64,000 bases of DNA from Eledone cirrhosa. Taxonomy: Eukaryota. Shown one piece after another: positions 1,933 through 60,560 of the stretch. The stretch spans positions 329,592,001 to 329,656,000 of the forward strand of contig OZ024741.1 of the NCBI GenBank assembly GCA_964016885.1, read 5' to 3'. The position numbers were made by a program, and so were the translations under genes. The notes beneath the pieces were generated by a model, which did not search any database, had not been told where the DNA came from, and saw only the letters and a list, made by a program, of their open reading frames with translations. Position 1 is the stretch's first letter; each line of letters begins with the position of its first letter.

Positions 1933-2768
1933 TCTATGTCTGTCTGTCTGTCCCCCTAAACCTCGAGAACCACCCAACCGATTTTTTTCAAACTTTACAC
2001 ATGTAATACTTATGGTCGTGTGAGTGTTTTGAGCAAAAAATATTTCAAATTTTCAATGCCCTAGGGACCGCATTAGGCGAAAAACCGTATATTTTAGGCT
2101 TTAAAGGCTTTTTTGAGGTATAACGGAACAATAATCCAGGCGATTACTTCAAAATTTGCATTACTTATGTCGTTTAAAGTATTTTGAGCAAAAAAAATGT
2201 TCTCATTTTTTGCACCAGGGACCGCATTAGGCGAAAAACCGATTTTTAAAGCATTTTTGTTGCGTTAGAGCCTGTAACTCGAGAAGTACCCAACCGAGTT
2301 TTTTTAAACTTTGCATATGCATTACTTATGTTTCACAAATTTTCTTGACTGAAAAAGATTTCAAAATTTTGCCCGGGGACCGCATTGTTTAGCATTTTGG
2401 TTGCGTTAGGGCCTGTAACCTTAAAAGTATCCAACTAAATTCCTTCATACTCTTCACCACTGCAATCCCACATGCTTACTGCTCTGTAACTATTGCTTTC
2501 ATTGTACCATAGCACAACAAATTCGGTTTGTCGAATGCCTTTTTACTTAACCCTATCGTCTTGGCTTTCGTGGGTTGAATGTTTTACTCTCACGCACCCA
2601 ATTAAGTTAAACCCCTAGTAATCTACGACGAATTTTTTTTATAAGCACAAAATGTAGACACCATCCCTAGGCGAGATATTCCGTACTTCTCTGTATTGTT
2701 TCAGAAAGGAGGGATAAACATGCCAATCTATGTTTAGAATCCCGAGCAACACCGGGCCATTCTGCTAG
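1933..2768 (+). mobile_element. Non-autonomous Helitron
   Basis: Starts A|TC followed by (TGTC)n. Ends with a subterminal hairpin CCCG..CGGG (2741-2756) and CTAG|T. No TSD. A second copy of the family is at 36940-37888. Confidence 0.8.
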
Positions 2769-3251
2769 TATAAAATAAAAAATGGAACGTACGGCCGTGA
2801 TATAATTTCCCGGGACCCATCTAGGGTAAATAATATGGCCGATACTTGGTTTTAGTGTCCTAAATGATCATCATCGACAATCAGTTATTAGCTCCACCCA
2901 CTACACGACACGACACGACACGTCATCAGCTGCTGCTTGATTTTTACATATTCATTATCTTACAAGCTTCATTTTTACACGGAAAAACATTGAATTTTTA
3001 TAATAAATATTTATTAAAATATTAACAGAGAAAATTAGATTTTTGATTGATTTTTTGAACAAAATAAATATTTATTTACAGTTTTTCACAGAAAAACTAT
3101 GCTTCATTTTTACATGAATATTTATTTAGTTTTTAACAGAAAAATATTGTTGCGAAATACATTTTTTTTAAAAACAGATTTACAGTTTTTAACAACAGAA
3201 AAAAAATTTCTTTATACAATATATTGTTGCGATATACAGTATTTCTTTTCT

Positions 3252-4223
3252 TTAAACAATATATTGTTGCGATATACAGTTTAACATTTTTTCGAAACAT
3301 TTACCTTCACCAGTTGGATACGTAGCATTGCGCCATCGCCACTCAAACTCCCTTAAATACGACTGAAATAGTGGTCCGCTGGTACCATTGATGCGTTTCA
3401 GTTTTTTTTTTGGGGGGGGGGGGGGGGGAGACCACATCCCCTCAATATTTTCTGTGTATACTTGATATGGGATCAACGAAATGCTGCGAATGGTTGACAG
3501 TCAGATGTGTATAACGACCAGGCAAATTTGGTATTTGATTGTATGCCCGCCACTCATCTGTATGGATCATCGATCCATCTGCACAGTGCCTTTCAATGAG
3601 AGGCAGCAGTACGATCAGGGATTTCATGTAGAAAAATATTGCGGGGATTATTAGTATCAATTCCGCCAACGAGCCAATGTCCTTCATGCCAGAGCCCACG
3701 AGCATATTTACGATGAAAATATTTGAACAGTTATTGGTAATCCGTTAGAATCCAGACCACCAAGTATCGCCGGATTTTGCTCAACCCATTCACTACATAC
3801 ATCACGCATAAAATTGCACCAGTCGGTAATGGTACTTGTATTGTTACAGCAAATTTGAATTGAAATAACATTTTCGGTGTCAAAACACCAATAGTAGATA
3901 AAATCGAGAATTTGTTGTAGATTCAAATGACTTCTAGTAAAAAAGGATCCACAACGAATCGATTGCGTAAAGTTGCATGCCTTACGTTTCCATCTGAAGC
4001 CATCAATCCCGTCTTTCAAAGTCACAAACGAACATAAAATATTGCAGGCAGTACAATTAACAGTATTTGAAATTAACCTGTTGCTAGCCAGAAATTCCAG
4101 AGTAGAGCGATTGTTTGCTGTAGTTAAATGCATTTCACGGTGTGTTAAATTCAGATTTAAAGTTTCTTCTGGTGAATTAATATTCTCAACAATAAATTGT
4201 GGTGCACGCGGTCTTCCAGACAT
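3252..4223 (-). pseudogene. Merlin transposase pseudogene, left arm (frameshifted; first catalytic D deleted)
   Basis: ORF pieces 3708-4223, 3442-3705 and 3252-3476 give an N-terminal Zn-ribbon-like region (CTAC..C..FRWK..C), WCNFMRDVC, GSMIHTDEWRAY, VNHSQHFVDP and TENIEGMW. Confidence 0.85.
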
Positions 4224-4321
4224 ATTTCTTTCGATATTTAGTTAGTTGTTCACGAAGTCCACGTGCACCACAACTTCCGGCCTAACTAAATATTTACTTT
4301 CAATATTGAAAGTAAATATTG

Positions 4322-4929
4322 AGATGAAAATGTAAGGCATGCTACTTTACGCAATCGATTCGTTGTGGATCCTTTTTTACTAGAAGTCATTTGAATCTAC
4401 AACAAATTCTCGACACCGAAAATGTTATTTCAATTCAAATTCGCTGTAACAATACAAGTACCATTACCGACTGGTGCAATTTTATGCGTGATGTATGTAG
4501 TGAATGGGTTGAGCAAAATCCGGCGATACTCGGTGGTCTGGATCCTAACGGATTACCAATAACTGTTCAAATTGATGAGAGCAAATATTTTTGAAAGGCA
4601 CTGTGCAAATGGATCGATGATCCATATAGATGAGTAGCGGGCATACAATCAAATACCAAATTTGCCTGGTCGTTATACACATCTGACTGTCAACCGCTCG
4701 CAGCATTTCGTTGATCCCATATCAAGTACACACGGAAAATATTGAGGGGATGTGGTCTCATGCCAAAAAAAAAAAAAAACTGAAACGCATCAATGGTACC
4801 AGCCGACCACTATTTCAGTCGTATTTAAGGGAGTTTGAGTGGCGATGGCGCAATGCTACGTATCCAACTGGTGAAGGTAAATGTTTCGAAAAAATGTTAA
4901 ACTGTATATCGCAACAATATATTGTTTAA
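4322..4929 (+). pseudogene. Merlin transposase pseudogene, right arm (5'-truncated, internal deletions)
   Basis: ORF pieces 4391-4594 (ending VQIDESKYF) and 4711-4929 (HTENIEGMWSHAKKK..YLREFEWRWRN). Confidence 0.85.
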
Positions 4930-5727
4930 AGAAATTGTAAACTGTAAATCTGTTTTTAAAAAAATGTATTTCGCAACAATATGTTTCTGTTAAAAACTGT
5001 AAATAAATATTCATGTAAAAATGAAGCATAGTTTTTCTGTGAAAAACTGTAAATAAATATTTATTTTGTTCAAAAAAATCAATCAAAAATCTAATTTTCT
5101 CCGTTAATATTTTAATAAATATTTATTATAAAAATCCAATGTTTTTCCGTGTAAAAAATGAAGCTTGTAAGATAATGAATATGTAAAAATCAAGCAGCAG
5201 CAGCTGATGACGTGTCGTGACGTATCGTGTAGTGGGTGGAGCTAATAACTGATTGTCGATGATGATCATTTAGGACACTAAAACCAAGTATCGCCATAAC
5301 CTGTCCTACCCATGCCAACTTGACTTGGCATTAAAAAAACTCACTCAGATTGTAATAACACTTCCAACCCATACCAATATGGAACGGTGTGATGTTAATT
5401 CATTGAAAAATAAAACTGATAATAATGTAATTCACACTAATGGTGAAGGTGGGATGTTTCTACATTGGAAAAACAATGCATTTGGTTTAGTTTAAACTTC
5501 GTTAAGATTGCATGCTGGAAATTCAAGATGGAAAAAGAACATTTTCTTTAATGAGAAGGATAAAGTTGGCGGGGAAAGAAAACCCGTTTTATCATCTTCG
5601 TTACCAACACAACAGAAAAATATTTTATAAAAATTAGTAAAAGTTTGTGCCAACATCAGAAATCGATAATAGTTATACTAATTAAGAAACATGGCAATGA
5701 ACAAATTATTAATAATGTTTTTAATTA

Positions 5728-5974
5728 CAAATAGGCTATTTTGCCGGTCTCGGTAAAATAAACAAACATGCTTTTTTACCGGTCCCTGTAGAATCTAACC
5801 TTGCCTTATGTGCCAGATAGACTGGGTTAGGATTAGGGCTACGGTTAGGGTTTAAATTGTCTTAATAATTGGTGGCGAAAATAAATAAACTTCTGTGTTA
5901 AATTTGGGTTGTTATTTTTTACATTACCTGTCTTCATAATAATAAAAATATTTACCGGCAAAATAGCCTCTTCC
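5728..5974. mobile_element. MITE with 8-bp TSD and internal TTAGGG-like repeats
   Basis: Subterminal IR AGGCTATTTTGCCGGT / ACCGGCAAAATAGCCT. Flanking direct repeat TTTAATTA at 5720-5727 and 5975-5982. gggttaggattagggctacggttagggtt at ~5824-5852. Confidence 0.7.
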
Positions 5975-33177: not shown

Positions 33178-33882
33178 CTATAATGAAATATAGTCCAAGT
33201 TGGTGCCATACTGCAAGGCCGTCTGGAAATCTTCAGCAGAATCAGGGTACTCACATTTAATTTGACCCACCGTATAACAAGGCAGCGTGTTATTTGTTGT
33301 CCCTACCGCACAGCCAGCAGCATTCCATGTCGTCGCTACCGGCAACCCTCCAGCCCACACATAGCTGTTCTCCAGCCGGTATGAACCGGTTGTGGTGACA
33401 ATGCCCAACGGGGCGGATGTAATCATCGTTGTTGTCTGCAACCCCTGTTGTTGTTGCTGCTGCTGCTGCTGCTGTTGTTGTTGTGGTTGTTGCTGTTGGT
33501 TACCCGATGCTACAATCTGGTGGTGCAGACAGGAAGCATTGGTCGCCAAGTTAGCAGCGTTGGAATTTACGTTACCGGCAGTAACCACTGCGGTTGTGGA
33601 CTGCTGCTGTTGTTGTTGCTGCTGTGTCGTAAGGCTAGGCAGTGGTGTGGTGAGCTGCAACGCGAGGGAGGCGGCTGGTAGGAGAGTAGTACCTGTGGGG
33701 GTAAGATTCTGCTGATTGTGCAGCTCGTTGTGTGAGTGTGCATGAGTGCTACGGTGTTTCTCGAGATGCGCTCGCTGAGAGAACTCCTTGCCACAAACTG
33801 TACACTTGTGTTGTTTCTCGCCTGCATGGGTGCGCTCGTGTTTGTTCAGATGGTCTTTCCGTGAAAAAGCTTTCTTACATAT
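33178..33882 (-). CDS. C2H2 zinc-finger protein, terminal coding exon (end of finger 5, finger 6, polyQ/Thr-rich C-terminus)
   Basis: Acceptor ctctcttttcAG at 33884-33883, then 705 nt open: [47 protein letters not shown]...QQQ...TNLDYISL*. It is in frame with track ORF 33178-33660. Confidence 0.92.
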
Positions 33883-34509
33883 CTGAAAAGAGAGATGAAA
33901 ATATATATATATAACAAATATTATAGATATATAAAAAAAAAATGTTTATAACCAGAAATACATTTGCTGTGCCAAGCCAGGCTATGGACCTTAAACTCCT
34001 GATGAAGTCTTAAGAGCACCTACATGATATATAGTGCATTTTAAGGGATCTAGCCAGATCAATTGGAGACAGTTGCTTCTGATAGGGCACTCCATGTGCA
34101 TCCCAGGAATAAGTGAGGAGTAGAAGGAGGAGGAAGAATAATATCTGTAACTAAACCCAACTTAATTGCCTTAAACCCCCACCAAATGTAAACGAAACAC
34201 ACAAACAGATACATATTACCTCATTCACCAGACTGATCAAGACAGTTCAAGGAAGAGTTAAATTACACACATCCTTTTAAACTATATCCCAGCAAGACCT
34301 GAACCAATTACTGGTATGGGGGTGACACATGCCATCCAGCTATTGCAGTCATATTACATGGTTTCTATACAATAACAATATATATTGTAATTATACATAT
34401 AAACATTTGGCACAAGGCTAGCAATTTGAAGGAGAGGACAAAGTTGATTAAAACTATCCCAATGCGTTGCTAGTACCTTATTTTATCAACTCCACATATT
34501 ATAATTATA

Positions 34510-36939: not shown

Positions 36940-37888
36940 TCTATATATCTAAAACAGAGAATGTCTGTCTGTCTATCTGTCTGACTCCCTAAAACTCGAG
37001 AACCATCCAACTGATTTTTTTCAAACTGGCCGTGTGAGTGTTTTGGGCAAAAATTTCAAATTTTCGATGCCCTAGGGACCACATTAGGCGCCGAAAGTTG
37101 CGCCCTTTTAATATCTGTCTGTCTGCATTACGACATTATGACACTATCTGTGTGTGTGTGTGTGTGTGTATATATATGTATATATAGTGTGTGTATATAT
37201 ATATATATATAATGTGTAACGTTTTTCGAAATATTTACTTCTGCGTTCACAGATTGATATTTTTAGTTTCAGAAAATCTCGTTAAGGGTGAAAGCAGCGA
37301 TTCTTTGCTTAAACTTTAATCTGTTATTTTAATATATATATATAATTATATATTCGTGTACAGATATTTTTGCATACACAAAAACAAAATATAAACAGCA
37401 GCAAAAACAACAACAAAAAAGAGAGGGAACGCAATTACATGCTTTTGAAAAATTGTAATGGAAAATTATTTGCCTATTCACCCAAGGCGACTTCACTTTT
37501 CATTAGGACTTCTGCATCAATTGTGAACATATGATGAAACATTGAAAGGAGTAAGACAACACCACTCTACACCACTGCAGTACCACATGCTTTCTGCTCT
37601 GTAACTATTGCTTTCAATGTACCATAGCACAACAATACATGTTCGGTTTGTTGAATGCCTTTTTACTTAACCCTATCGTCTTGACTTTCGTGGGTTGAAC
37701 ATTTTACTCTCAGGCACCCAATTAAGTTAAACCCCTGGTAATCTACGACAAATTTTTTTTATAAGCACAAAATGTAGACACCATCTCCATGCCAAGGTAT
37801 TCCGTACTTCTCTGTACTGTTTCAGTAGGAGGGATAAACATGCCAATCTATGTTTAGAATCCCAAGCAACACCGGGTTATTCTGCTAA
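36940..37888 (+). mobile_element. Non-autonomous Helitron, same family as 1933-2768, different interior
   Basis: A|TCTATA start, shared 5' block (ctcgagaacca.ccaac.gattttttt) and a shared ~300-bp 3' block ending cccaagcaacaccggg..CTAA|T. Confidence 0.8.
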
Positions 37889-38079
37889 TATTTAAAGGTA
37901 AAGTAATCAATTACTGGATTATGGCAAAATAGAAACAAATAATTTATATGAAGGCGGTCTATCGGTCAATGCGATCTCAGTGATAGACAGTCTCCATATC
38001 TATATGTATATATACAAAATGAAATGTTATGGCAGGGTTAATTTTACATAATTGTTTTATAGCATAATATATATTTTAA

Positions 38080-45083: not shown

Positions 45084-48000
45084 ATGAACAGTGACATAAT
45101 ACCTATATATATATTGTATATACACATATACAATACTGCTTTCCCGGGTCCTGTTTCTGATCATAATGCACCTACAAAGGCATCGAATGATGATGAATCC
45201 TCAAATCTCAAGGGACGGGGTTCGTCTGATGGAGAAGAAACAGGTCCTAACCAAACAACAAGCAAATCTCGCTTAGTTAGCTGTAAAAAGCAAATAATAG
45301 TTAGCTCCTTGAACACCAGAACCCTCCTTCCAACAGGTAGACTCCAGGAGCTGGCAGAGAATGCCAAACTTCAGAACATTGACATCCTTGCGGTCCAAGA
45401 ACACTGCTTTTTCCACCCAAAGGATGATCTCAAGTGTCACACCCTAGGATCCTACCAACTTGTCACCTCTTCAGCCACCAAGAACCCTGTCAATGCCTCC
45501 GTTGGAGGAGTCGGCTGCCTTCTCTCATCTAAAGCCAGCAATAATCTTCTGGGGATTGAAACAATCTCTCCCAGAATCTTGATGCTTACACTAGAGGGCA
45601 ATCCTAGAACCACTGCGATATGTGTATACAGTCCTCATAACGCCTCTCCTGAGGATGAGGTAAGAGAATTCTACACGACCCTTCGCACAGTTGCTGAGCA
45701 AGTACCCTTACACAACTTTCTTATCATCGCTGGAGACCTCAACGCTCAACTTGGCCCGGATGAAGTAAAGTTCACATACAATAGGGTTACTAACCGAAAC
45801 GGGGAATATCTCAAGGACTTCATGGAAGAATTCAGTCTATTCAGCTCAAACAACAGCTTCATGAAGACCAGAGGCCAGCTTTGGACCTTCGAATACCCAA
45901 ACCAAAAACGAGCTCAGATTGACTATTTGATATTTCGCAAGAAATGGAGAAACTCAATCAAAGATTCTAGATCTTATTCCTCCTTTAGCTCTGTCGGCTC
46001 AGATCATCGAGTCATCTCGGCAACAATCATACTTAGCCTCAGGATATCCAAGAGGGCCGAACCTCATCCCATGAAAAGAATAGACTGGAAAGCCGTTTCT
46101 TCCAACAAACAACTATCCAATAGCTTCACGCTTCAAGTCTATAACAGATTTCAATCTCTCTCAACTTCTGACATCAATGACGATAATATTGAAGATGTGT
46201 ATGACTGTCTTAAGCAATCAACAGAGGAAGTTGCACTTGCCACCCTACCTAAAAAGAAAAGCCGACGCCAAAATAAACCTAGTGCCTCAGAGAAGGTAGT
46301 TGAAGCAAGGGCCCATCTTAGGTCAATATCCCAATCTCACCATCAATCACCATCTCAAGGGAAAAAGATACAGCTTATCATGGCCAAAAAATCACTAGAC
46401 GACGCTTATCTTAATGCTGAAGCCGACTATATCTCAGGTAGGATTGATCAGCTATCGCAACATCACATCAGCAAACACCATCATCTTGATTGGAAGGTTG
46501 TCAAAGATCTTTCAGGCAAAAACACAAACTCTGCAGTTAGAATCAAAGGAGGCTCTGCCAAAAAACGTCTTGAAAATTGGTCTGCTCATTTTAAAAACCT
46601 TCTAGGGAAAAAGGCCAGACTCCCTGATAACTATCAACTGCCATCCGTTCAGGTTTCAGAGCCTTTAGGAATCAACACCTCTCCTTTCACCATGCCTGAG
46701 CTCAAAGCCTCAAAAGCCTTTGGGCCGGATAATATACCTACCCTGATTTGGAAGGATGAGCATTTCCACATCCTTTTGCTCAACTTATGTAACCATACTT
46801 TCGAGACCAATAAACCACCTAGCGTCTGGCATGCAGCTCAAATTATCCCCATGCCCAAAAAAGATCTTTCTTTAGCCACCAACTATAGAGGAATTTCTCT
46901 CATGGCAATTGCTGCAAAAATATACAACAAGCTTCTTCTTAACCGCTTAATCCCATTTCTTGAACCAATCCTTCGTAACAACCAGAATGGATTTAGGAGA
47001 GGTAGATCAACACTTAGCCAGATTCTCTGCCTTCGCCGACTTAGAGAGGAGTCCCAAAACCGCAATCTAGACCTTGCACTCATCTTTGTTGATTTTTCAA
47101 AAGCCTTCGACTCAGTTGACAGGTCGGGGATGTTTGAAATTCTACAACTCTATGGGATTCCTGATAAAATCATCACGGCCATATGTGTAATGTATACAGA
47201 TACCAAATCAACTGTCCTGACCCCAGATGGGGAAACACCACCTTTCTCAATCCTCGCTGGAATATTACAGGGCGATACCCTTGCCCCGTATCTATTTATC
47301 ATTGTTGTGGATTATGTTTTGCGCATGTCTGTGGATAGGATTCAGGATAGGGGATACCAACTACAGCCTAGAAGCTCACGCTACCCAGCAAAATACTTGA
47401 CCGACACCGACTTTGCTGACGACATCGCATTGACCAGTCGGTCACTGGAAAATGCTGAGAGTCTTTTGAAGTCATTAGAGCAAGCGTCCAACTGTGTTGG
47501 ACTGTACCTCAACGAATCCAAGACTGAGTATGTGAACAGATGCGCAAACAGCCCAAATTACCCCATCAGAACCCTTAATGGTACCACCCTTAAGCAGGTG
47601 GAAGATTACAAGTATCTTGGCTCATATATCTCCTCCTCCAAAAATGATTTTCTAACCAGGAAGGGTATGGCATGGTCAGCGTGCAATGACATGCACGCCA
47701 TATGGACATCTCAACTTACCAACAAGCTAAAACTGGAAATATTCCAAGCAACCATTAAGCCCATATTACTTTATGGATCTGAAACTTGGACACTAACATC
47801 ACAACTTGAGAGGAGATTGGATGGCACATATACCCGCCTCCTAATGAGAGTGCAAAACCTATCCTGGAAACGACATCCCACCTTGTCTAAAATCTATGGC
47901 AAACTCCCTCGAGCCTCTGCCCTTCTAAAATCCCGGAGAGCTCAATTTGCTGGCCACTGTCACCGTGCCAGCAATGAAATCATATCCGCTCTCTTGCACT

Positions 48001-48164
48001 GGAACCCTGACTCCAGCCTGACTAGGAGTAGGAAGCTGTCATTCCCTGATGTTATCTCTAGGGATACGGGAATCAGTAGACAGGACCTGGGGGCAGCGAT
48101 GGGGGACAGGGAATTCTGGGGCATGAGAGTGAGATCCATCATCTCGACAGTAGTCGACGAGTGA
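45084..48164 (+). CDS. AP-endonuclease / reverse transcriptase polyprotein of the RTE LINE (first ~17 codons of the called ORF are flanking DNA)
   Basis: APE motifs SLNTRTL, AVQEH, VYSPH, GDLNA, IDY, SDH. RT motifs QNGFRRGRS, FVDFSKAFDSV, GILQGDTLAPYLF, DFADD, YKYLGS. No internal stops. Confidence 0.92.
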   Translation: MNSDIIPIYILYIHIYNTAFPGPVSDHNAPTKASNDDESSNLKGRGSSDGEETGPNQTTSKSRLVSCKKQIIVSSLNTRTLLPTGRLQELAENAKLQNIDILAVQEHCFFHPKDDLKCHTLGSYQLVTSSATKNPVNASVGGVGCLLSSKASNNLLGIETISPRILMLTLEGNPRTTAICVYSPHNASPEDEVREFYTTLRTVAEQVPLHNFLIIAGDLNAQLGPDEVKFTYNRVTNRNGEYLKDFMEEFSLFSSNNSFMKTRGQLWTFEYPNQKRAQIDYLIFRKKWRNSIKDSRSYSSFSSVGSDHRVISATIILSLRISKRAEPHPMKRIDWKAVSSNKQLSNSFTLQVYNRFQSLSTSDINDDNIEDVYDCLKQSTEEVALATLPKKKSRRQNKPSASEKVVEARAHLRSISQSHHQSPSQGKKIQLIMAKKSLDDAYLNAEADYISGRIDQLSQHHISKHHHLDWKVVKDLSGKNTNSAVRIKGGSAKKRLENWSAHFKNLLGKKARLPDNYQLPSVQVSEPLGINTSPFTMPELKASKAFGPDNIPTLIWKDEHFHILLLNLCNHTFETNKPPSVWHAAQIIPMPKKDLSLATNYRGISLMAIAAKIYNKLLLNRLIPFLEPILRNNQNGFRRGRSTLSQILCLRRLREESQNRNLDLALIFVDFSKAFDSVDRSGMFEILQLYGIPDKIITAICVMYTDTKSTVLTPDGETPPFSILAGILQGDTLAPYLFIIVVDYVLRMSVDRIQDRGYQLQPRSSRYPAKYLTDTDFADDIALTSRSLENAESLLKSLEQASNCVGLYLNESKTEYVNRCANSPNYPIRTLNGTTLKQVEDYKYLGSYISSSKNDFLTRKGMAWSACNDMHAIWTSQLTNKLKLEIFQATIKPILLYGSETWTLTSQLERRLDGTYTRLLMRVQNLSWKRHPTLSKIYGKLPRASALLKSRRAQFAGHCHRASNEIISALLHWNPDSSLTRSRKLSFPDVISRDTGISRQDLGAAMGDREFWGMRVRSIISTVVDE

Positions 48165-57478: not shown

Positions 57479-57803
57479 TTAAAATTAAGTACCAGTAACG
57501 CAGTGGGGTTGATTTAATCAACTTTCCCCTACCCCCAAATTGTTGGCCTTGTGCCTAAACCAGAAACCATTATTTAACCATTATTAATGCTAATCCTTGA
57601 TGATGATGATGATAAGTATTAGTATTATTGAATAATGTGGCAGCTACATTTTACACATATATAACTGCTATATTATCATTTAAAGTCCAACCATTACTAG
57701 TAGAGAAAACAAACATATGATGATGATGATATGGTAGTTACTTATAAGTGTAAAGTGTGTATGAGGGGGACCTACATAATACCAAATAAAAGAATTAACT
57801 CAC

Positions 57804-58412
57804 TTGACATTGGAATGGCCTCTCACCCGTGTGAGTACGAGAATGATTCCGTAGTCTGTCTCGTTGAGAGAAAGCTCTTTGGCAAATTCCACATTTGAAA
57901 GGTTTTTCGCCAGTATGGCAGCGTTGGTGATTTTTCAAGTGGTCCTTACGAGAAAAGCTTTTGCTGCAGAAGGCACAATTGTATGGGCGAACGCCCAAAT
58001 GGGTCCGCTCATGATTCTTCAGCCGGTCTCTCTGTGGGAAGACCTTGTGGCAGTATGCACAGCTGAAGTGTTTTTCCACCTCTGGTATTTGCTGATGGCG
58101 TTTCAGGTATGCCCGCAGTGTAAATCCTTTGCGACACACCTCACATTTGAATGGCTTCTCGCGCCGACTATTTAGCAAGCCCATATTAATCGTTGCAGTG
58201 GGTATTGTGGAAGTTATGGTGGTCAAACTGTTCGAGTTCACGGCCAGCGCTGTCGACAAAGACAACGCATTCGTCGTTTGGTTCAAGTGTTCCAGCAAAT
58301 CCAGAGGTTTGTACTCAATTGGATCTTCAATAATAGATGTTGCAGTTTGGTCATTTGCATTAGGTAAAGTCTCGTGTGCAGGCTGCACAACAAATATTGA
58401 TTCAGAAGACAT
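57804..58412 (-). CDS. C2H2 zinc-finger protein, first coding exon (N-terminus, fingers 1-4, start of finger 5)
   Basis: ATG in gtcaccATG context with an in-frame TGA three codons upstream. CxxC-x12-HxxxH repeats with TGEKP/TGERP linkers. Ends at the GTGAGT donor. The spliced product is ~437 aa. Confidence 0.93.
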
Positions 58413-58751
58413 GGTGACTCAATTGCCTGCAGTTTAAACCATTCGTTCTTTCAAGGACAACAACATTAACAATGGTAGAAAAAAAATCTTTAGAAAAGGG
58501 AAAAAAAACACTAGCAACAAAATATCCTTTAAAATTTGCAGTTTTTTACGTGTCAAAATACAGGGTCTGGCACTGCACAGGATATGTAAGGAGCGTATTT
58601 AATGTAAACATTGCCATCGCTGTAGAAGACTGTAGGAACATTCCATATATAAGTGGCACTGGATAGAAAGAGAATAGAGTTGTATCAGAATGTGGGGTGT
58701 CCGTTAGGTGTGGCTTCTGTAAGCATTCTCAGTATAAAATGTAGAAGCAAT

Positions 58752-58919: not shown

Positions 58920-59563
58920 CAGTGAATCTTCGCTTATCCGGACGGTCAAAACCAAACAGTTAGAAAAAGATCCGGTTAAGTGAAATATCCAGATAAGTGA
59001 ATTCTAAAATCCCATTGTTACATAATGCTCGTGGTTTCTAATGTTTTGGCTTCTTTTAGTCAAAATAAAAGACAAATGCTAAGTAAAGAAAGTTTATTAG
59101 AATAACAAAAGAACAGCTAGAATTTATAAGAAAATTAATTAAACAAACATAAGAATAACTAAAAACTTGGTAAAACTGAATTGAGTCAAACCATAAAAAG
59201 TTAGTACTTTTTAAAAAAATGACTAAATAGAAGATTGTTTTCGCGCCGAAGCTCGCCGTTCCGCTACCATTTCCACGCTCAACCACCTCCCTCATGTTTA
59301 TCGCATGTAAAAATGGAATCATTCCTGTGTCCCCTTTTCCGATCAAATCCTGCAGCAATTGTTTTCTGTAAATCCGCTTTAGTATCTCTAAAACTCCCTG
59401 GTCCATTGGCTGAATAAGTGACGTAACGTTCGCTGGAAGAAATGCTGCCCGAATCTGTCCGTCTGCCGAAATCAAGTCCTCCTCATCCGGAGGTAGTTTA
59501 GAAATAGCCATCCGGTAAATCGAATTTCGGAAAAGCGATATCCGGATAAGCGAAGATGCATTG
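58920..59563 (-). mobile_element. Internally deleted pogo/Tigger DNA transposon
   Basis: TA TSD and 23-bp TIR CAGTGAATCTTCGCTTATCCGGA (2 mismatches between ends). Transposase remnant FLPANVTSLIQPMDQGV. Confidence 0.9.
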
Positions 59564-60560
59564 TATTACTACTTCACATCAAAAATTGAAGTCTTTCTAC
59601 AATCATTATAGGATATTAAGAGTTAAAACTAAAAATGTTCACAATGATAAGTCCATTCATAAAGATACTACAAACATTTGAATTAACAAAAGAGTCTTTA
59701 GACATTTTTAGCTAAATCGTTACAGGATGTTAAGAGTTAATAAATGTTTTGTTGTTGTTGAGTATCCCTGGTCAAGTATGAAGAACAGCAATATATATAT
59801 ATATAGAGAGAGAGAGAGATGACAAACCAACAAACGAAACCTTATAGGAAGCCAGCCAAACCTACACAGGTGTGAGCCATAACAACAATTACTGATGATG
59901 ATAGAAATGGTAGAGGAACCTTACATTGAATTAGAGCAATGTGAAATAAAAAGTTCTGCTCAAGGACACAACAGACCACCCAGTCTAGGAATCAAACCTA
60001 TCTTATGATTTTGAATCCAACACCATAACCACTAGACCCCATGTATATACACACACACACACATATATAGTTCAAGATTAAAAATGGCAAATACAGTTAC
60101 AAAAAGTCTTATTGGTTTCATGCTTGTTGGAAAAGGAAAAGGTACCATGCCCTTTTTTCTTCACCTTTCCAACCTCTTCTTTCTCTTAAATTCACTCTTT
60201 TCTGATAAAAGATTAATGTCCGATACGTTGAGACATATCTTTTCCTTTTCCAACAAGCATGACACCAATAAAACTTTGTGTAACTGTATCTGTCATTTTT
60301 AATCTTGAGCTATATATGTTTGTGTTTGTGTGTGTCTGTGTCTGTGTCTGTGTGTGTGTGTGTGTGTGTATATAACACTCACACAAACCACTCTACAATG
60401 ACATACAATGATAAGAGGGCTGCAGACTTAGTTCTCAAAGACAATACCAGTTATATGTTACATGTAACACCAATCTACTAGACCATACAACAGAAAGCAG
60501 GTTGCAGTCTTGACTCACAATACATACCTCAGATATATAGATATAGTAGCGTAGTGTGTG

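What the first reader, a model, noticed from the sequence alone, without database searches (positions are those of the whole stretch)
2837..5295. Merlin fold-back whose two broken transposase arms carry complementary deletions
Seen: two divergent transposase copies form a 2.46-kb asymmetric palindrome with the same element end at both termini. The left arm keeps the N-terminus, DFIYYWCF and the HRKYARG..WLVGGID..PDRTAA segment, but has lost DESK by a deletion between CAAAT microhomologies. The right arm keeps VQIDESKYF but lacks those three segments. Merging them by eye gives an almost complete IS1595/ISXO2-type DDE transposase (IDES / HTDEW / NIEGMW). Established: Merlin is the eukaryotic relative of IS1016/IS1595. 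Inference: this is an intermediate between an autonomous Merlin and a fold-back element. It could be mobilised in trans, be repaired by inter-arm gene conversion, or yield ~0.9 kb of dsRNA acting as a Mu-killer-like silencing locus or ADAR substrate.
Basis: partly seen in the sequence, partly recalled or inferred. Interest (0 to 1): 0.72.

Follow-up and report, generated by a model that had tools for sequence, protein, structure and literature searches.

The report
Broken mirror-image Merlin transposon
This is a real 2.5-kb mirror-image jumping gene whose two broken halves descend from one already damaged copy and cannot mend each other; related mirror doubles, some with intact insertion marks, recur in three Merlin families of this genome and likely move as a unit, then likely lose part of one arm.

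Summary
The palindrome is real: arms 3998-2837(-) and 4319-5295(+), 937/957 aligned bases identical, Merlin/IS1595 family. The deletions are not complementary. An 11-bp frameshift in the left arm lies inside the right arm's 131-bp deletion, and both arms share a 2-bp frameshift, so merging cannot restore a frame. The arms are sister copies; their 18 differences are private (8 left, 10 right), so no recent conversion. The family's 8-bp target duplication is at best 6/8 here. The junction is single-copy among 13 candidates. The family context is the interesting part: two other insertions keep the same central hairpin with a different arm loss; a sister family holds a full 3.83-kb two-gene palindrome with a perfect duplication, and its relatives keep mirrored centre bits in both orientations; a third family has one too. 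In 4 of 6 long-armed sister-family copies both arms share private mutations, so arms get recopied, spreading defects. Best reading: inert one-arm-deletion relic of a mobile palindrome (0.5). Silencing is untested, and the topology is opposite to Mu killer. The scan noted such palindromes before on other DNA (e1-10314763).

The parts
2837..5295 (.). Whole Merlin palindrome (2,459 bp), 3' element end at both termini
2837..4304 (-). Left arm: terminus, AT-rich repetitive subterminal region, transposase pseudogene, 5' leader up to the hairpin centre; one extra C (or a G>C change) in the terminal bases
3252..4223 (-). Left transposase pseudogene (ATG 4223 to stop 3252); 14-bp loss of IDESK, 11-bp frameshift after 3610, 2-bp frameshift near 3453, poly-C run replacing HA codons
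   Evidence: (PF12762 E 1.9e-5 on one piece)
3721..3725 (-). Single CAAAT left by the 14-bp microhomology deletion that removed the first catalytic Asp; private to this arm
   Evidence: present in L002, L003, L005-L011 and the right arm
3604..3615 (-). Site of the 11-bp frameshift deletion shared with L002, L003 and L012; these bases are also absent from the right arm
4194..4276 (.). Imperfect hairpin across the leader and start codon (23-bp arms)
   Evidence: I24; z = -5.9 for 4180-4345
4289..4320 (.). Perfect 32-bp palindrome, centre 4304|4305; symmetry centre of the element; 13-bp arms of it survive in L002 and L003, a degraded form in L012
   Evidence: its k-mers up to 4319 are in runs X1-X3
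4319..4321 (+). Junction where the right arm jumps from the mirrored leader to the mirror of 3998 (about 290 bp of leader, ATG and N-terminus missing)
   Evidence: only the window spans it among 13 of 13 scored candidates
4319..5295 (+). Right arm: truncated pseudogene 4319-4929 with 24-bp and 131-bp deletions, shared 2-bp frameshift, stops at 4325-4327 and 4635-4637, then subterminal repeats and canonical terminus
   Evidence: (PF12762 E 0.0016 on one piece)
2830..2837 (+). Possible degraded left copy of an 8-bp target duplication (6/8 match to 5296-5303)
   Evidence: chance 0.9% for one register, 1.9% for best of four
5296..5303 (+). Right flank 8-mer; its first 3 bases also extend the inverted repeat; the flank beyond is single-copy
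   Evidence: 3-bp overrun by chance 2%; contig 5269-5759 identical in X1 and X2, 5269-5800 in X3

Best explanation
This is a dead, non-autonomous Merlin element whose two arms are sister copies of one already frameshifted transposase gene, and it is likely what remains of a roughly 2.9-kb palindromic donor that likely inserted as a unit and then lost about 290 bp of one arm next to its central hairpin. Steps: (1) shown: the lineage carried an 11-bp frameshift before this copy arose; (2) shown: both arms share further private changes, so one arm was copied from the other after those changes; (3) inferred: the copying was fold-back synthesis or conversion centred on the 32-bp palindrome at 4304|4305; (4) inferred: the two-ended palindrome moved in trans by a Merlin transposase, as long-armed relatives with perfect 8-bp duplications did; (5) inferred: a microhomology deletion broke the symmetry and stabilised the locus; (6) shown: each arm has since decayed on its own (about 1% each).
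For: Arms differ at 18/899 columns against 27-32 to the nearest other loci L002/L003, form a clade (90/89), and share 2 substitutions found in none of 13 other rows plus a 2-bp and a 3-bp deletion. L002/L003 (one insertion duplicated with its host flank) and L012 keep the same mirrored centre but jump to 3643, not 3998; neither junction can derive from the other. Sister family B: L086 is a complete 3.83-kb palindrome with two whole genes, a 77-bp spacer and a perfect 8-bp duplication. Of 16 loci that hold that centre (28 of 28 candidates scored; 12 were short off-centre matches and were dropped), 13 keep mirrored sequence on both sides of the spacer (only 5-7 bp in two), the spacer faces the longer arm one way in 3 and the other way in 10 (three unscored), and deletion end points differ. 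7 of 10 two-ended family-B elements have perfect duplications, among them L089 and L091 with 0.95-1.3-kb arms. In the window's own family a 490-bp arm that reaches into the coding region is shared by 3 loci, two with different perfect duplications.
Against: This copy has no perfect target duplication (6/8 at best) while 7 of 13 other two-ended family members do, and its inverted repeat overruns the ends by 3 bp. No full palindrome of the window's own family was found (40 of 233 and 13 of 13 candidates scored). L002/L003 and L012 have lost their other ends, so their full fold-back form is inferred. Shared private mutations in both arms (4 of 6 long-armed family-B copies) are explained as simply by arm formation at the locus. 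A short invertible loop could also give both spacer orientations. Family C element L087 keeps what looks like a piece of a normal 5' terminal repeat at its centre, which fits in-place extension.
Confidence: 0.5

Rival explanations
1. In-place arm extension: an ordinary single-gene Merlin inserted here; a break near its 5' end was repaired on the inverted 3' terminal repeat (or primed at the hairpin), copying about 1.16 kb of the 3' part backwards and overwriting part of the target duplication. The palindrome never moved.
For: Arms are sisters with locus-private shared changes; 3-bp overrun into the flank and damaged duplication; mini fold-backs at this family's termini also run 6 bp into flank (L056, L058); junction unique; the same model is proposed for Galileo (PMC3573991, section 10 read whole); L087 centre.
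Against: Needs the same hairpin to be used independently in at least two lineages; does not easily explain mirrored centre bits in 13 of 16 family-B loci with both arms surviving in different copies.
Confidence: 0.33
2. Mu-killer-like silencing locus or ADAR substrate: read-through from a neighbour makes a long hairpin RNA that is diced or edited and silences the family. This can be true on top of either origin.
For: A read-through transcript is predicted to form 936 inter-arm pairs. C2H2 zinc-finger exons 12 kb upstream (+) and 28 kb downstream (-) both point towards the element.
Against: The genes diverge, so the element's own promoter gives one-arm sense RNA; Mu killer has the 5' ends outside (PMC3440606, passages). 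Arm differences and deletions accumulate as in neutral decay. Many other long-armed copies could serve equally, so this locus is not special.
Confidence: 0.08
3. Two independent head-to-head insertions followed by a deletion of both 5' ends.
For: Explains the missing target duplication; head-to-head dimers are known for P elements (PMC5932611, passages).
Against: The arms are each other's nearest relatives with shared private changes; the centre is an exact mirror, not a target site; the 6/8 flank match is unlikely by chance (1-2%).
Confidence: 0.06
4. Assembly artefact (chimeric fold-back reads).
For: No listed contig bridges 4319|4320 or the right arm's private deletions in X1-X3.
Against: Arms differ by 20 substitutions (3:1 transitions) and several deletions, each arm keeping the ancestral state where the other is derived; right end plus flank is exact in three runs of one sample and the left leader with the window's own alleles is exact in X2 and X3.
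Confidence: 0.03

Closest known systems
Merlin superfamily (IS1016/IS1595-related); Repbase Merlin-1_DR and Merlin-N5_DR as listed in PMC8101967 (passages; supplement 5 part 1 of 2)
   Same: DDE_Tnp_IS1595 domain, terminal GG, 8-bp target duplications, internal tandem repeats; two Repbase entries are listed with 1,000-bp terminal repeats, beyond the 24-462 bp of the original description
   Different: Here the inverted arms contain the transposase coding region, up to two whole genes (L086, 1,875-bp arms); the table does not say what the 1,000-bp repeats contain, and Repbase itself was not seen
Galileo of Drosophila mojavensis, extended-TIR (2RT) copies (PMC3573991; passages and section 10 whole)
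   Same: Terminal repeats of very variable length (18-1,250 bp), extended by recruiting internal sequence, proposed to arise by break repair on the other repeat
   Different: P superfamily; recruited sequence is the spacers F1/F2 and the longest-repeat copies lack the transposase ORF; no two-gene palindrome in the parts read
Mu killer of maize (PMC3440606; passages)
   Same: Both ends from the same element end, two partial transposase copies in inverted orientation
   Different: Mu killer duplicates the 5' end with genes converging and has shown silencing activity; here 3' ends are outside, genes diverge and no RNA is shown
Fold-back at short inverted repeats in replication (ODIRA, PMC4689423; abstract only) and maintained inverted gene pairs in Caenorhabditis (PMC1803023; abstract only)
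   Same: Short inverted repeat as the seed of an inverted dimer; arms kept alike within a locus
   Different: Described for chromosomal segments and host genes, not for a cut-and-paste transposon unit

Membership tests
Merlin superfamily | Transposase with DDE_Tnp_IS1595 (PF12762) domain | tested here: met
   relative L010 (about 90% DNA identity) E 1.8e-20, 74 bits, above cut-off; window pieces E 1.9e-5 and 1.6e-3, below cut-off because fragmented
Merlin superfamily | Terminal inverted repeats starting 5'-GG | tested here: met
   GGCGATAC at the right end and in the family; left end GGCCGATAC
Merlin superfamily | 8- or 9-bp target site duplication | tested here: inconclusive
   met for the family (7 of 13 other two-ended copies perfect); 6/8 at best for this copy
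Autonomous Merlin (alone or after merging arms) | One open frame with D, D, E | tested here: not met
   11 frameshifting bases absent from both arms and a shared 2-bp frameshift
Fold-back element mobilised as a unit | Same inner junction at several loci with different target duplications | tested here: not met
   this junction single among 13 of 13 scored candidates; met for other junctions of the family (L007/L008; L020/L028/L101)
Galileo-type extended-TIR copy (works like) | Terminal repeat lengthened by internal sequence, variable among copies | tested here: met
   arms of about 70, 100, 190, 300, 400, 490 and 960/1160 bp in this family; not a member, different superfamily
Mu killer-type silencing locus | Inverted duplication of the transposase 5' part with promoter ends outside | tested here: not met
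   3' ends outside, genes divergent against PMC3440606 passages
Mu killer-type silencing locus | Hairpin transcript, small RNAs and trans-silencing | not testable with these tools
   needs RNA and small-RNA data of this organism

The most novel reading that the evidence does not exclude
In this lineage the working Merlin unit is a two-gene palindrome: one arm is recopied from the other through a built-in central hairpin at or after each move, the double transposes with an ordinary 8-bp duplication, and the 'long terminal repeats' of most copies are the stumps of a second gene arm. That would be a cut-and-paste transposon with a fold-back replication step in its life cycle, and a natural series for dating arm conversion.
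Probability: 0.25. Interest if true: 0.75.

Novelty: new variant of a known kind. Interest (0 to 1): 0.48.

Why it matters
The locus itself is likely inert. Its value is as one member of a series that shows how fold-back elements arise from a coding transposon: three Merlin families in one genome carry arms with transposase sequence, from 70 bp up to two whole genes, several with perfect target duplications. The series lets one test whether long terminal repeats grow by repair or are left by one-arm loss from a palindrome, and it shows arm-to-arm copying that fixes defects instead of repairing them. Palindromic two-gene Merlins did not turn up in the paper searches made (titles and abstract starts seen); Repbase, subscription journals and bioRxiv supplements were not seen and could hold such entries.

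Tried and rejected
Complementation of the arms: rejected. Recent inter-arm conversion at this locus: no tract seen; 8 left-derived (one is the terminal extra C) and 10 right-derived differences are spread along the arms (homopolymer, junction and one misaligned repeat stretch were left out, 899 columns kept). Empty-site paralogue: right flank is single-copy, so the target duplication cannot be settled that way. Second copy of the junction: none. Intact partner: L010 has a 338-aa open frame but no terminal repeat was found around it; L008 has ends and a 321-aa frame with a 39-bp in-frame loss between the second D and the E; search scored 121 of 1146 candidates. Expression: no RNA holder listed; no evidence either way. 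Junction support: contigs of X1-X3 end at the 32-bp palindrome and none listed bridges it; RAD reads of X5 at that place run on unlike the window; a hole proves nothing. Opposite orientation of the L007-type leader, sought as a flip test in the window's family: only 3 loci, one orientation. Histone-type stem-loop (lead from e1-9530552; pattern recalled, not from a call): 0 matches in the window with one mismatch allowed, 0.6 expected.

Full report
Observation. The stretch 2837-5295 is an asymmetric inverted repeat. The left arm read on the minus strand (3998-2834) aligns with 4319-5298 at 937 of 957 columns, with 15 transitions and 5 transversions. A relative with a 338-aa open frame (L010) scores PF12762 DDE_Tnp_IS1595 at E 1.8e-20; two window pieces score E 1.9e-5 and 1.6e-3 (8 proteins scanned). 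Family ends begin GGCGATAC and 7 of 13 other two-ended copies have perfect 8-bp target duplications (L006, L007, L008, L020, L028, L030, L101; near in L102 and L105; absent or damaged in L004, L100, L104, L165). These are the Merlin features given in PMC8101967 (passages). The window lies at G000:C2:329.59 Mb in a 3.0-Gb genome, between C2H2 zinc-finger exons. The host is likely an octopod; this rests on a recalled repeat motif and on unchecked scan notes, not on a test.

The deletions are not complementary. Against near-intact relatives, the left arm has lost 14 bp (IDESK, private), and 11 bp after 3610. The 11-bp frameshift is shared with L002, L003 and L012, so it predates this copy, and it falls inside the right arm's 131-bp deletion. 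Both arms are also 2 bp short near 3453/4730 and lack 3 bp after 3871. A merged gene would keep two frameshifts. The right arm adds two stops. The apparent complementarity is what independent deletions in two copies look like.

The arms are sisters and have decayed separately. They differ at 18 of 899 columns, against 27-32 to L002/L003; they pair in the tree with support 90/89 (not starred); two substitutions are in both arms and in none of the 13 other rows; 8 differences are derived on the left and 10 on the right. So one arm was copied from the other once, after the gene was dead, and there is no sign of later conversion. This pattern also argues against an assembly artefact. Independent support is partial: the right end with its flank is exact in contigs of three runs of one sample, the left leader up to the palindrome is exact in two, and no listed contig bridges the junction.

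Centre and ends. A perfect 32-bp palindrome (4289-4320) marks the symmetry centre; the right arm follows it for 16 bp and then jumps to the mirror of 3998. L002/L003 and L012 keep the same mirrored centre and jump to 3643 instead, read from opposite sides; that junction is also in run X1. The window's junction is single among 13 of 13 scored candidates. The flanks match 6/8 in one register (chance 0.9-1.9%), and the inverted repeat overruns the ends by 3 bp (chance 2%). Unit transposition of this copy is therefore not shown.

Family context. In the window's family the 5' arm is a copy of the 3' end of very different lengths, about 70 to 490 bp; the 490-bp form reaches into the coding region, is shared by three loci and has different perfect duplications at two. 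A protein search (121 of 1146 candidates scored) showed two more divergent gene pairs. L086 (family B, about 60% amino-acid identity) is a complete 3.83-kb palindrome: two whole genes, 98.6% identical arms, a 77-bp spacer and a perfect 8-bp duplication. Of 16 loci with that centre, 13 keep mirrored bases on both sides of the spacer, the spacer faces the longer arm one way in 3 and the other way in 10, and the deletion end points differ. L089 and L091 have 0.95-1.3-kb arms with perfect duplications; L090 has none. L087 (family C) has PF12762 in a right arm mirrored over 1.07 kb and a perfect duplication, but its centre keeps what looks like a 5' terminal-repeat remnant. In 4 of 6 long-armed family-B copies both arms share 3-5 changes found in no other of 20 rows, and none in L093 and L159 (bootstrap not fully settled). 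The stop at codon 240 of L086 is in both arms and in none of 10 other loci read there. Arm-to-arm copying is thus real in this group and spreads defects.

How it most likely works. Shown: dead parent, one arm-copying event, separate decay, recurrent long arms with target duplications in relatives. Inferred: fold-back at the central hairpin makes a double with two like ends; a transposase supplied in trans moves it; deletions beside the centre then break the symmetry. I give this 0.5. The main rival (0.33) is extension in place by break repair on the inverted end, as proposed for Galileo (PMC3573991, section 10 read whole); the damaged duplication, the 3-bp overrun, the locus-private shared changes and L087 favour it. 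The two can coexist. Double insertion (0.06) and artefact (0.03) fit poorly.

Silencing. A read-through RNA is predicted to pair over 936 bases between arms, and zinc-finger genes 12 kb and 28 kb away point towards the element. But the genes diverge from the centre, so the element's own promoter would make single-arm sense RNA, the opposite of Mu killer, which has the 5' ends outside (PMC3440606, passages). Nothing here shows transcription. I give a silencing or editing role 0.08.

Comparison and novelty. It is a Merlin by domain, ends and family duplication size, not autonomous, and works like a Galileo extended-repeat copy, except that the arms hold coding sequence. Two Repbase Merlins are listed with 1,000-bp repeats (PMC8101967 supplement 5, part 1 of 2), so length alone is not new. 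Two-gene palindromic Merlins were not found in searches (listings only); an octopus repeat annotation mentions Merlin once and palindromes not at all in its main text (PMC13282606, two passages). PMC5932611 was seen as passages, PMC4689423 and PMC1803023 as abstracts; Feschotte 2004 only as summarised in PMC8101967.

Verdict. Real structure, wrong on complementation and repair, unproven on silencing. The locus is likely inert; the family pattern is a new variant of a known kind. Interest 0.48.

Noticed in passing
L086 = G000:C11:53551045-53554872: Complete 3.83-kb two-gene Merlin palindrome with a 77-bp spacer, perfect 8-bp target duplication and a private stop codon in both arms.
   Followed up: yes
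L087 = G000:C1:45539941-45542990: Third Merlin family: fold-back with the DDE domain in both arms, perfect 8-bp duplication and a likely 5' terminal-repeat remnant at the centre; its left terminus has the same G>C change at base 2 as one reading of the window's left end.
   Followed up: partly
L053-L060 (e.g. G000:C3:361606358-361607309): One-ended module of this family with an internal inversion, always beside the same CCAACCCTAACC flank; its joint has depth about 210-340 against 7-10 for single-copy DNA in X1-X3, so it likely spread as cargo of another element. L056 and L058 carry a 50-bp mini fold-back of the terminus that runs 6 bp into the flank.
   Followed up: partly
L002 and L003 (G000:C2:362.57 and 362.37 Mb): One family insertion duplicated with its host flank; a cytochrome P450 exon (PF00067, E 2.9e-10) lies about 100 bp from the truncated end.
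   Followed up: partly
L155 = G000:C3:228214688-228216366: Family-B copy that keeps the 5' part of one arm and the 3' part of the other with a perfect duplication, a truly two-arm patchwork, though reference bases 394-944 are in neither.
   Followed up: partly
window 2449-2771: Very high-copy repeat ending in CTAGT 65 bp left of the element (second copy at 37564-37891); Helitron-like by its end (recalled feature, not tested).
   Followed up: no
window 33181-33945 (-), 57798-58418 (-); L070 1-576 (+): C2H2 zinc-finger exons; the element sits between two that point towards it.
   Followed up: partly
window 45084-48161 (+): 1,026-aa open frame of a LINE with endonuclease and reverse transcriptase domains.
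   Followed up: no
window 59059-59565 (-): Fragment of a DDE_1 (PF03184) transposase, a different superfamily.
   Followed up: no
G000, e.g. C12:9010422, C2:63552282, C2:112531786: Several distant Merlin-like genes (40-46% identity) with stop-free frames of about 330 aa; L096 has 70-bp repeats and a 9-bp duplication, others show no clear ends.
   Followed up: no
L005 3142-4194 (+): Stop-free 351-aa frame beside a family copy that looks like an intronless host gene copy; not identified.
   Followed up: no
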